Assembly (NCBI GenBank): GCA_951406725.2
Contig: OX597831.1
Coordinates: 36,208,001 to 36,272,000 of the forward strand
Origin: Octopus vulgaris
Taxonomy: Eukaryota
Direction of reading: 5' to 3'
Length of the DNA: 64,000 bases
The position numbers were made by a program, and so were the translations under genes. Under the pieces are notes generated by a model. That model was not told the origin of the DNA. It did no database searches and saw only the letters and a list, made by a program, of their open reading frames with translations. Shown here in pieces: positions 12,203 to 54,218 of the stretch (position 1 is the first letter of the stretch; each line of letters begins with the position of its first letter).

Positions 12203-12376
12203 CTAGCAGAAAGTCAGCCCTTCAAGCAGTTTTCTGTTTTTCAAATATGGAGTATGTGTGTGTTTATATTAGAGAGACTGTGTATGTGTGTGTGTAAGAG
12301 AGAGAACATTGGAAACAGTGGATATCGTTTGGATAATAGTCGTATTGTTTTAACACTTTGTAGAATATTCCTATTA

Positions 12377-12740
12377 TTCGAGCTTTGGTGTTGGAGAAGA
12401 CTTTTACGGATTCCATGGACAGCGAGGCTCACCAATGGAGAAGTTCTTAAGCAGATAAGGCCGAAAATGCCGCTAGAAGCTAGGATCACCGAGCATAGAT
12501 TGGCATATTTCGGTCATATTATGCGGAGAAAATCCCTGGAGAAGGACATCATGCTCGGAATGGTCAGTGGCAAGAGAGGAAGAGGCCGACCAAGAACTCG
12601 CTGGCATGACACCATCAAGAGTGATACCGGAATGGACATAGCCAATCTGAAAGAAGCGGCCCAGGATAGAACTGACTGGAGGACACTGATCCAACGAGTG
12701 ACCGAGAGTCGACTTCGACTGAGCGGATAGAGATAGGTGA
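12377..12740 (+). mobile_element. RTE-clade (BovB-like) LINE 3' fragment, ORF C-terminus
   Basis: FELWCWRRLLRIPWTARLTN...LAYFGHIMRR..SLEKDIMLG.V.GKR.RGRPRTRW.D.I...DRTDWR is the characteristic RTE/BovB-type C-terminus. Open to the stop at 12730. Confidence 0.9.
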
Positions 12741-40880: not shown

Positions 40881-40900
40881 GCGAGAAAGAAGCAACAAGA

Positions 40901-41857
40901 ATGGATAAGTTTTTAGTACAATCGTTTCATATAAAGACGGGCTTTATTAAAAGTTGCAAAAATTGCAGCAATTATAATAATACTACCAACAATAAAAACA
41001 GCAATAGTAACTATCAAAACATGGGTGAAATTAGTAACCACAGAATGACTAATAACATTAACATTAATAGTAATAATAACAATACCGATATTAATAGAAG
41101 TAATAATGTTAATAATAGAAATAATAGAAGTAAGGCTAATGGAGAAAATACGGAGAATGAAAATATCAGTGATATCTATAACAACAATATGCAGTCGGAT
41201 AAAAAGACTAACAATAATAGTAACATTACCAATAATATAAAAAATCATGGTAGGACTTTAGACCTAAAAGATGAAACAGAAGGATCAATAAATAATAGCA
41301 ATACTTTAGATATCAGCACCAACTATAAAAATATTAATAACAATAAGGACAATTATACTCATGATAATCAAAATAATAGGAACATAAGACATCTACCCAA
41401 GAATAATCCAACACCTGAAGTTGTTCCTCCTGTGTGTAAGTGTAGAATAAAATCAAAATGCCCGGCACCTGGTCTATGCGGGGAAAATAACGTAATCTAT
41501 AAATGTACCATATCCACGGAGAATAACAAATATTTTTACATTGGATGTACAATTAATTTTCTAGCCAGAGTTAGAAACCACATCTCGTCTTTTAAATTAC
41601 GTCATATAGCTGGTACCACCACACTTTCAAACAAAATCTGGGAACTCAAAAATAATAACAATAATTATAACCTTAATTGGGAAATAGTTAGGAGAGCAAT
41701 TCCGTATAAAAATAGCAGGGTTGGTTGCCAACTATGCTCCATGGAGACGTATGAAATTCTAAAGCATAGAAAACATAGAAACTTATTGAATAACCATATC
41801 GAACTAGGTCAAGTTTGTGTCCACGCTAAATTGAAGACTTTAAAATATTTTAAATGA
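40901..41857 (+). CDS. Asn-rich region plus PLE-type GIY-YIG endonuclease, 318 aa, no RT
   Basis: CKCRIKSKCPAPGLC...NVIYKC...YIGCT..F..R..NH..SF...T.LS..IW.LK...W.I...CQLC..E..EI...LLN...E...CVH, domain about 41435-41857. Uninterrupted frame. The ORF-track start at 40679 lies in microsatellite. Expression unknown. Confidence 0.8.
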   Translation: MDKFLVQSFHIKTGFIKSCKNCSNYNNTTNNKNSNSNYQNMGEISNHRMTNNININSNNNNTDINRSNNVNNRNNRSKANGENTENENISDIYNNNMQSDKKTNNNSNITNNIKNHGRTLDLKDETEGSINNSNTLDISTNYKNINNNKDNYTHDNQNNRNIRHLPKNNPTPEVVPPVCKCRIKSKCPAPGLCGENNVIYKCTISTENNKYFYIGCTINFLARVRNHISSFKLRHIAGTTTLSNKIWELKNNNNNYNLNWEIVRRAIPYKNSRVGCQLCSMETYEILKHRKHRNLLNNHIELGQVCVHAKLKTLKYFK

Positions 41858-47941: not shown

Positions 47942-48050
47942 ATATATATTTATATGTATATACGCCAAAAGGATTCGATGGTGGATGTGTCGAAACAATT
48001 GTTGTGATTAATAATATATTTTCGTATACTCCATCTTCCGTTTTTATTTG

Positions 48051-48293
48051 TAAGCCAACTTCCCGTTTTTCTGCTAGAGGACAGCGGTACCATTTCTCTA
48101 AAGAAATAAGTTCTTTGGATCTGATTGGAGCCCTTTGTTTATAGCGATTTTGTTTTCACTAGTTTCTGCAAATTTCTCCATGGCTATAATGGAATGAAGT
48201 ATGACAACAGGGGAATCGGAGTGCTTCATATTTGAAATTAAATAGTCTAAATCAGGTGGTGCTATTAAGTTAGACATGGCTTGGACCAATCAT
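48051..48293 (-). pseudogene. RSPRY1: Frameshifted fragment of RING finger and SPRY domain-containing protein 1
   Basis: With two frameshifts: IGP/AMSNLIAPPDLDYLISNMKHSDSPVVILHSIIAMEKFAETSENKIAI.../LEKWYRCPLAEKREVG. This parallels the RSPRY1 segment as I recall it (LAGP...LEYL...ALIALEKFAQTSENKLTI...LESW...KRQVGF). Confidence 0.8.
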
Positions 48294-48329
48294 TGGTCGA
48301 AACATATCTAAGTTTATGTATATATATAT

Positions 48330-48648
48330 ATATAATAAAATATTAGGGAATAAATCCAAACTTACAGGGAAAAATCAGATTTAGGATTGAATCCAATTTT
48401 ATAGTAAAATATTATATTATATTAAATTAGAGATAAAACCACTATTAGGCAAATCATACAATGAAAAACTTAAGCCAATACATAAGATTAATTATTTATA
48501 TTATTTTAAATATATATCAAAATTATTAAAAAAAGATAATTAGTATAACACTACGATCGTTTCATGGCTGTCCAATTCTTAAAATTTCGAGTTACAGTCA
48601 TTCTTCAGGTGATTTAAATATTTAACTTTGCGAGGTTTAATCAAATTG
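48330..48648 (-). mobile_element. AT-rich PLE-type terminus carrying a hammerhead
   Basis: Lies between (TA)n and (TATG)n and contains the HHR at 48549-48611. Confidence 0.7.
48549..48611 (-). ncRNA. Type I minimal hammerhead ribozyme
   Basis: Minus strand: cac-CTGAAGA-atgactgt(22 nt)acagccat-GAAA-cgatcg-TA-gtg. Palindromic stem III, GUA cleavage triplet. Confidence 0.85.
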
Positions 48649-53337: not shown

Positions 53338-53580
53338 TACAGGATGTTCAAAAAGTCTCTCGGCAGAAAAGTATTTAATGGTTTTCGCGCGATTCTTGTA
53401 TATTGATCCCTTACTTGCTACCCAAAAATAAAAAGCCTGGCGGCGTTAAATCAGGTGATCTTGGTGGCCAAAGTCCCTTCGAAATAATCCGTTCACCGAA
53501 AAAAACTCTTCAAGTAGCGCCATGTTGTTGTACAAGATGAAGAAAAATTCACTGCGGAGAGACTTTTTGAACACCCTGTT
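53338..53580. mobile_element. Tc1/mariner-derived MITE
   Basis: TIRs acaggatgttcaaaaagtctctc / gagagactttttgaacaccctgt. Internal minus-strand relic WPPRSPDLTPP. Confidence 0.85.
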
Positions 53581-53644
53581 TATAAAAACGGTTGGTGAAG
53601 AAGAAAATAAAAGCGGGGAGGGGTGCTAGAAAAGAATAATGAAA

Positions 53645-53675
<31 letters not shown>

Positions 53676-53830: not shown

Positions 53831-53968
53831 ATGTAACCTTCTAAGTATGACAATCCTGATGAAGACGTGAGATATAAACAATAGAATTGAAATGTAGACA
53901 CTAAATTCTTCCCACTTGCATTTATTTACTAATTAGTTTTCGCTTTCTTTATTTCTTTATACTTATTT

Positions 53969-54218
53969 TTCATTTCATTATTTTTTTCTAGCATCCCTCC
54001 CCGCTTTTATTTTTTTCTTCACCTACCGTTTTTATAAACAGGGTGTTCAAAAAGTCTCTCCGCAGTGAATTTTTCTTCATCTTGTGCAACAACATAGCGC
54101 TACTTGAAGAGTTTTTCGGTGAACGGATTATTTCGAAGGGACTTTGGCCACCAATATCACCTGATATAACGCCGCCAGACTTTTTATTCTGGGGAGCAAG
54201 TAAGGGATCAATATACAA

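What the first reader, a model, noticed from the sequence alone, without database searches (positions are those of the whole stretch)
47963..48648. Host-gene (RSPRY1-like) fragment sandwiched between PLE-type termini
Seen: about 240 bp of minus-strand coding-like sequence with two frameshifts and no GT donor at its 3' end. On the right is an HHR-bearing terminus on the same strand. On the left is a plus-strand piece with an HHR 3'-half motif (gtc-GAAA-caattg-TT-gtg). A perfect small palindrome gaccaat-c-attggtc followed by gaaac marks the 5' junction. From recall, EKFA.TSENK...LE.W...KR.VG is RSPRY1. Inference: an mRNA fragment was captured by template switching or PLE-mediated retrocopying, which would show these elements moving host sequence.
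Basis: partly seen in the sequence, partly recalled or inferred. Interest (0 to 1): 0.72.

Follow-up and report, generated by a model that had tools for sequence, protein, structure and literature searches.

The report
Backwards mRNA scrap on LINE tail
A dead 200-base copy of a spliced host messenger RNA (RSPRY1) sits backwards against the last 70 bases of a LINE jumping gene, likely because both ends of one DNA break were extended on two different RNAs, a known accident in mammals; the Penelope-type ends on either side are likely bystanders.

Summary
The retrocopy is real; the proposed carrier is probably wrong. Window 48052-48251 (minus) is a 200-bp piece of RSPRY1 mRNA. It joins three parent exons on another chromosome exactly, with introns of 1260 and 1275 nt gone, and has 4 substitutions and one 4-nt deletion. 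The mRNA piece is therefore antisense to the LINE tail. That fits twin priming in trans, described for mammalian L1, and not template switching. The left end is a GIY-YIG Penelope-like 3' terminus. The right is a hammerhead-motif repeat with no ORF found. All three families end in (TA)n, which explains the sandwich. Runs from two other studies carry the spliced copy. Which enzyme copied the mRNA is not shown: the cDNA starts exactly at the Penelope end with no microhomology. The scan noted a similar antisense mRNA/SINE chimera in another genome (e1-7812720). It is a single dead copy.

The parts
47966..48051 (+). Piece A: 5'-truncated 3' terminus (pLTR end) of a GIY-YIG Penelope-like family; holds only the 3' half of a hammerhead motif; its usual (TA)n tail is missing here
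   Evidence: 1152 candidates, 40 scored, best 93%; endonuclease-like frame upstream in longer copies; 14 of 20 endonuclease loci carry this terminus downstream on the same strand; 26 of 29 copies are followed by TA
48052..48159 (-). First 112 nt of RSPRY1 exon Z (108 nt here, 4-nt deletion; substitutions at 48145, 48132, 48110, 48076)
   Evidence: parent G000:C1:108084012-108084123
48160..48223 (-). Whole RSPRY1 exon Y (64 nt), identical to parent
   Evidence: parent G000:C1:108085399-108085462
48224..48251 (-). Last 28 nt of RSPRY1 exon X; base 48251 fits both the mRNA and the LINE (1-nt microhomology)
   Evidence: parent G000:C1:108086723-108086750
48251..48318 (+). Piece B: 3' end of an APE+RT LINE (probably CR1 group) with stem-loops (palindrome 48284-48298) and a short tail repeat
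   Evidence: 6223 exact matches to a 22-mer; 66 of 66 nt identical to two other copies; fold z -3.67
48319..48334 (.). (TA)8, likely remnant of the target microsatellite
   Evidence: Sequence
48335..48644 (-). Piece C: 310-bp hammerhead-motif repeat of PLE type (motif 48611-48549), fixed 5' start, often head to head with an inverted partial copy; no ORF found
   Evidence: 2036 candidates, 40 scored; 34 of 48 loci with an inverted partial copy, some loci duplicated

Best explanation
The 200-bp piece is a spliced RSPRY1 mRNA fragment joined antisense to the 3' end of a LINE, likely formed in one insertion by twin priming in trans at the TA tail of an older Penelope-like copy. Shown: the spliced origin, the order and orientation of the four pieces, the families of the neighbours, and decay of the copy. 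Inferred steps: (1) a break formed in the (TA)n after piece A. (2) The right-hand end primed on the LINE RNA 3' end and copied about 70 nt. (3) The left-hand end, at A's last base, primed inside RSPRY1 mRNA and copied 204 nt. (4) The two cDNAs joined head to head through 1 nt of microhomology. A and C sit there because all three families end in (TA)n. The copy likely has no function.
For: Both exon junctions are exact and the parent introns are GT-AG. Of 40 scored matches (146 candidates), only the window and the parent exons match the host part. The mRNA is opposite in sense to the LINE and occupies the place of a 5' inversion. It has no poly(A), and both ends are mid-exon. No TA is left at either junction, whereas 26 of 29 A copies are followed by TA and 37 of 69 truncated LINE copies have TA at their 5' end. 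The LINE group does twin-prime: 1 of 90 sampled copies has a 390-nt self inversion with TA on both sides (L117, a sister subfamily). Another is fused head to head to a Penelope ORF (L113). Short tails are common: 17 of 90 are 100 nt or less. 65 of 90 LINE copies end in TA-type runs, and L196 and L124 show this LINE beside A-like and C-like ends elsewhere. The LINE-(TA)n-C junction occurs once in the genome and A-(TA)n-C not at all (exact patterns). The ages of the LINE and mRNA pieces are compatible (0/66 vs 4/200, p 0.57); A looks older (6/86 vs 4/200, p 0.07). Precedent: PMC4476161, PMC13174262, PMC11702581 (passages).
Against: There is no microhomology at the priming junction, whereas 71% of L1 inversions have 2 bp or more (PMC11702581). 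No TSD is seen, so a single event is not proven; the family shows none in 22 of 22 non-TA copies either. No empty site or intermediate allele was seen. No second host-mRNA capture turned up in 90 + 7 LINE copies, but only one 5' neighbour was searched against the genome. The cDNA begins exactly at the PLE end, and a PLE protein nicks AT-rich DNA at its own pLTR and primes without homology in vitro (PMC11167929). The age difference of A is not significant, and only 40 of 1152 candidates were scored.
Confidence: 0.6

Rival explanations
1. Two events. A tailless RSPRY1 retrocopy inserted first at A's end; the LINE later primed in the TA beside it and joined its 5' end into the copy, deleting the TA between (or the reverse order).
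For: The family leaves no TSDs, so one and two events look alike. The site is a hotspot with three repeat families in 700 bp. LINE 5' ends join neighbours by short homology elsewhere (L123).
Against: It needs both TA remnants to vanish. The mRNA lies in the orientation and place expected for a 5' inversion. Run X3 has contigs running across both outer junctions (30 and 26-27 letters on the short sides, under the tool's 31-letter rule).
Confidence: 0.15
2. Mixed machinery. A Penelope protein cut at A's own end and copied RSPRY1 mRNA there without homology, while the LINE protein extended the other end.
For: The junction is exactly at A's last element base with no homology. The anole PLE protein cuts both strands in AT-rich DNA by its pLTR and starts reverse transcription internally without homology (PMC11167929, passages). 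L113 is a head-to-head PLE/LINE fusion. C copies often show two-ended priming from TA.
Against: The A family looks decayed (63-89% protein identity among 149 other matches, many with stops). In the passages read, the PLE protein needs a motif in its own RNA. No PLE RNA sequence lies within the new insert.
Confidence: 0.12
3. Break-repair patch: loose cDNAs of the LINE and of RSPRY1 were ligated into a break that no element enzyme made (recalled class of templated insertions; no paper read).
For: No TSD, blunt left junction, short pieces.
Against: The LINE piece keeps its exact 3' end and tail against (TA)n like ordinary insertions (65 of 90), as target priming predicts.
Confidence: 0.1
4. One reading: PLE template switching or transduction carried the host piece between PLE termini; or PLE exon trapping as in note e1-8670049.
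For: PLE-type ends lie on both sides. C and the mRNA share a strand. PLEs can move host genes (PMC3846280, passages).
Against: A LINE tail and TA lie between C and the mRNA. A is antisense to the mRNA. A and C are different families, tail to tail. No source locus was found. Neither end is at a splice site. The described PLE captures keep introns and have matching pLTRs and a TSD.
Confidence: 0.03

Closest known systems
Opposite-orientation RNA/L1 chimeras attributed to twin priming (PMC4476161: U5, U1, U2 with L1; PMC13174262: 2 of 17 mRNA/lncRNA-L1 chimeras antisense; PMC11702581: de novo two-template insertions; passages seen)
   Same: A foreign RNA piece, cut at its 3' side and internally primed, lies inverted at the 5' end of a truncated LINE 3' end; no first exon, no splice site at the junction.
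   Different: The LINE is probably CR1 group, in an octopus-like genome; no poly(A), no TSD, TA target, no microhomology at the priming junction.
Twin-primed 5' inversion of L1 (Ostertag and Kazazian 2001, as cited in the papers above; original not read)
   Same: Head-to-head geometry; this LINE group makes such self inversions (L117).
   Different: The inverted part comes from another RNA.
Host-gene mobilisation by Penelope in Adineta vaga (PMC3846280, passages)
   Same: Host coding sequence lies near pLTR-type ends.
   Different: There the gene keeps its introns and is framed by pLTRs of one family with a TSD; here it is spliced, and the ends are of two families with a LINE tail between.
Neptune-like endonuclease-positive PLEs and pLTR-derived hammerhead repeats (PMC8557442, 10.64898/2026.07.22.740005; passages)
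   Same: A follows a Cys-rich motif plus a GIY-YIG-type frame; C has a hammerhead motif and inverted head-to-head copies; TA ends.
   Different: C has no ORF found; clades were not tested by a tree.

Membership tests
Processed retrocopy of RSPRY1 | Exact loss of parent introns | tested here: met
   two junctions, introns 1260 and 1275 nt
Processed retrocopy of RSPRY1 | Intact parent at another locus | tested here: met
   eight exon matches on C1 without stops in the 79 kb fetched; window on C18; last exons not fetched
Processed retrocopy of RSPRY1 | Poly(A) tail and TSD | tested here: not met
   Ends mid-exon against piece A; so a tailless fragment, not a classical processed pseudogene
Twin-primed RNA/LINE chimera | Foreign RNA opposite in sense at the 5' end of a LINE 3' end | tested here: met
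Twin-primed RNA/LINE chimera | One TSD around both parts | tested here: inconclusive
   TA target; no clear TSD in 22 of 22 non-TA copies of the family
Twin-primed RNA/LINE chimera | Microhomology at the second priming site | tested here: not met
   None at 48051/48052; common but not universal in L1 (71%)
Twin-primed RNA/LINE chimera | Empty site lacks both parts together | tested here: inconclusive
   No joint across the insert; repeats on both sides break the contigs
Template-switch or ligation chimera (U6/L1 type) | Same orientation as the element | tested here: not met
   Antisense to both direct neighbours
APE+RT LINE, CR1 group (piece B) | APE endonuclease and RT in ORF2 | tested here: met
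   PF14529 and PF00078 above cutoff
APE+RT LINE, CR1 group (piece B) | Placement in the CR1 clade by RT tree | not tested
   Named relatives include bird and turtle RTs; likeness of motifs to CR1 is recalled; no tree built
Endonuclease-positive PLE (piece A) | pLTR end downstream of a GIY-YIG frame | tested here: met
   14 of 20 loci. GIY-YIG read from motifs; Pfam gave no GIY-YIG hit; RT not seen
Endonuclease-positive PLE (piece C) | Linked RT and GIY-YIG ORF | tested here: inconclusive
   None linked in 51 loci (one endonuclease-like hit about 700 nt away in L065, not followed) or
PLE-mediated host capture (Adineta type) | Host gene framed by pLTRs of one family, introns kept, TSD | tested here: not met
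   Two families, spliced, LINE tail between
Hammerhead ribozyme (A, C) | Self-cleavage | not testable with these tools
   Motif only; no Rfam hit; A lacks the 5' half here, and 2 of 26 A copies have the canonical core upstream

The most novel reading that the evidence does not exclude
Penelope and LINE machines share TA-array breaks in this genome: a Penelope protein cut at its own terminus and reverse-transcribed a spliced host mRNA without homology, while a CR1-type LINE extended the other end. PLEs would then make intronless host retrocopies, and two classes of retroelement would complete one insertion, as the head-to-head PLE/LINE fusion L113 also hints.
Probability: 0.12. Interest if true: 0.65.

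Novelty: new member of a known kind. Interest (0 to 1): 0.33.

Why it matters
The locus itself is a dead fragment. Its value is as a fossil of mechanism. It suggests that twin priming on a foreign mRNA, described for mammalian L1, also happens with a tail-specific, non-poly(A) LINE in a mollusc. I did not find such a case in six full-text searches (listings only for most papers; subscription journals are missing and supplements were not read). It also warns that in TA-rich genomes unrelated elements pile up at one microsatellite and can mimic capture between termini.

Tried and rejected
Rfam found no hammerhead, and folding gave no hammerhead for C. The idea that the copy is a true exon with assembly errors was rejected: the parent exons are intact, and the deletion allele is in contigs of X1 (possibly the assembly's own sample) and X2. 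DNA-level duplication was rejected because there is no intron sequence. A source locus for C read-through was sought: 1 match, the window itself. A-(TA)n-C: 0 matches. An autonomous partner for C was not found. Runs X4 and X5 (other organisms) show exon Z only in unbroken parent-type contigs, and X6 shows only exon Y; lack of cover proves nothing. A second capture was sought among 7 LINE tails with foreign 5' neighbours; the one searched (L242) is single-copy flank. I first counted L123 as an antisense PLE/LINE fusion and dropped it: its partner's hammerhead motif is on the LINE's strand. The exon limits were off by 2 nt and were corrected. An RNA-editing origin for the A>G change at 48145 was considered; X3's copy has the parent base, so it is likely a later mutation. 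The window-wide repeat search was swamped by microsatellites. No tRNA was found. Expression of the copy was not tested.

Full report
Setting. The window is G000:C18:36208001-36272000 of a 2.8-Gb genome, rich in microsatellites. It is likely an octopus: the one named protein hit is from Octopus bimaculoides.

The host piece. Searching the genome with 48040-48285 gave 40 scored matches of 146 candidates: the window, two hits 1.3 kb apart on C1, and 37 hits to only the rightmost 35-58 nt of the query. Alignment to 79 kb of C1 showed a third exon. With corrected limits the exons are 62, 64 and 141 nt, the introns 1260 and 1275 nt, all GT-AG, and both junction words occur exactly in the window. The copy takes the last 28 nt of the first exon, all of the second and the first 112 nt of the third. 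It differs by 4 substitutions and a 4-nt deletion. Three substitutions change residues that the parent shares with the O. bimaculoides protein, which fits decay in the copy. The protein is RSPRY1, and the parent exons seen are intact.

The missed element. 48251-48318 is a repeat. In longer copies it is the end of an ORF2 with APE and RT domains, behind an ORF1 with a weak CCCH match. Named relatives include bird and turtle RTs. I call it probably CR1 group, from that and from recalled motifs; no tree was built. PMC13282606 (passages) lists recently active CR1 and Penelope families in O. vulgaris. A 22-mer has 6223 exact matches, spread over three tail subfamilies (39, 34, 15 and 2 unassigned of 90). 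The palindrome is one of its stem-loops. The LINE is on the plus strand, the mRNA on the minus.

The flanks. A (47966-48051) is the 3' end of a family whose longer copies carry a Cys-rich motif and a GIY-YIG-type frame upstream (14 of 20 loci). The GIY-YIG call is by motif; Pfam did not confirm it. 26 of 29 copies run into TA; the window copy does not. C (48335-48644, minus) has a hammerhead motif, a fixed 5' start, two usual 3' ends each followed by TA, and an inverted partial copy in 34 of 48 loci (some duplicated). This is PLE-like by PMC8557442 (passages), but no ORF was found. So the order is A(+), mRNA(-), LINE tail(+), (TA)8, C(-).

How the LINE behaves. I examined 90 of the first 100 listed matches, all on C1. 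65 of 90 end in TA-type runs. 69 have their 5' end within 1.5 kb, and 37 of those have TA within 15 nt of it. 17 of 90 are 100 nt or shorter. One has a self inversion with TA on both sides (L117). One is fused with no TA, head to head, to an 825-nt Penelope ORF end that runs to its own TA (L113). None of 22 non-TA copies shows a clear TSD. Of 13 copies with TA at the 3' end but not at the 5' end, I looked closely at 8; none looked like host mRNA, and they were not searched against the genome.

Junctions. The left junction has no shared base between A's end and the mRNA continuation. The right has one shared base. Neither is a splice site.

Other samples. All data are assembled contigs. X2 (another study) has a contig bridging one spliced junction with the 4-nt deletion and no differences; it then runs into the parent intron, as an assembly graph would through the identical exon. 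X3 (a third study, library type unknown, with parent intron sequence) has a contig bridging the same junction without the deletion. By its listed differences it shares two copy-specific bases and has private ones. X3 also has contigs crossing the A junction and the LINE junction, with 30 and 26-27 letters on the short sides, just under the tool's 31-letter rule. The insert is thus likely a shared germline allele with some history, not an assembly error. X3's A part differs from the window's by 8 letters and 1 gap in 113 nt, more than the mRNA part does; I cannot explain this.

Mechanism. Template switching and RNA ligation give the same orientation; twin priming gives the opposite (PMC13174262; PMC11702581; PMC4476161; passages only). 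The geometry fits a LINE insertion whose second DNA end primed inside RSPRY1 mRNA (0.6). The main points against my reading are the lack of microhomology at the priming site, the absence of a TSD or empty site, and the start exactly at the PLE end, which recalls the in vitro behaviour of a PLE protein (PMC11167929, passages).

Novelty. This is a known kind in mammals. PLE host capture is also in print, with introns kept (PMC3846280). Six searches showed no report for a CR1-type LINE or a cephalopod; supplements were not read and may list such chimeras. Earlier scan notes describe related chimeras in this genome and a like case in another; they are unchecked leads. Verdict: a real, single, dead retrocopy; interest 0.33.

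Noticed in passing
L113:about 1550-2480 (G000:C1:4.64 Mb): An 825-nt 3' part of a Penelope ORF (endonuclease region to terminus) is fused head to head, with no TA, to a 107-nt LINE tail; TA lies on both outer sides. Possibly a two-element co-insertion.
   Followed up: partly
L117 (G000:C1:5.51 Mb): A young LINE copy with a 390-nt 5' inversion (99.7% to other copies) that overlaps its own 3' part, with TA on both sides.
   Followed up: partly
window 48335-48644 family (L040-L068, L201-L219, L240): The repeat has one fixed 5' start and two 3' ends (positions 236 and 310), each primed from TA, and is often palindromic head to head.
   Followed up: partly
window 40886-41854 (+): An open Penelope-type endonuclease frame with a long asparagine-rich stretch, 36% identical to the A-family frame.
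   Followed up: no
window 17759, 43349, 53856, 60484 (+), 40260 (-): Further hammerhead-like motifs from a loose scan; the one at 53856 lies between 167-nt inverted arms, 53501-53667 and 53950-54116.
   Followed up: no
window 12356-12727 (+): C-terminal fragment of a LINE-like protein, RTE-like by recall.
   Followed up: no
L008:1280-1570: A different upstream body shares the LINE's 3' tail; possibly a SINE of this LINE.
   Followed up: no
L079:2003-2160, L104, L123, L187: A short TA-flanked repeat of 150-220 bp; L079 has a minimal hammerhead motif.
   Followed up: partly
L196 and L124: LINE copies sit in the TA tails of an A-like end and a C-like end, showing nesting at TA arrays elsewhere.
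   Followed up: no
window 47970-48051 vs run X3: X3's version of piece A differs more from the window than the adjacent mRNA piece does; unexplained.
   Followed up: no
L012, L108, L243, L246: Short LINE tails carry small duplicated pieces of their own 5' end at the junction.
   Followed up: no
G000:C1:108086723-108086784: The O. bimaculoides predicted protein P0003 lacks this 62-nt exon and reads into the upstream intron, probably a prediction error; the retrocopy shows the exon is spliced in.
   Followed up: partly
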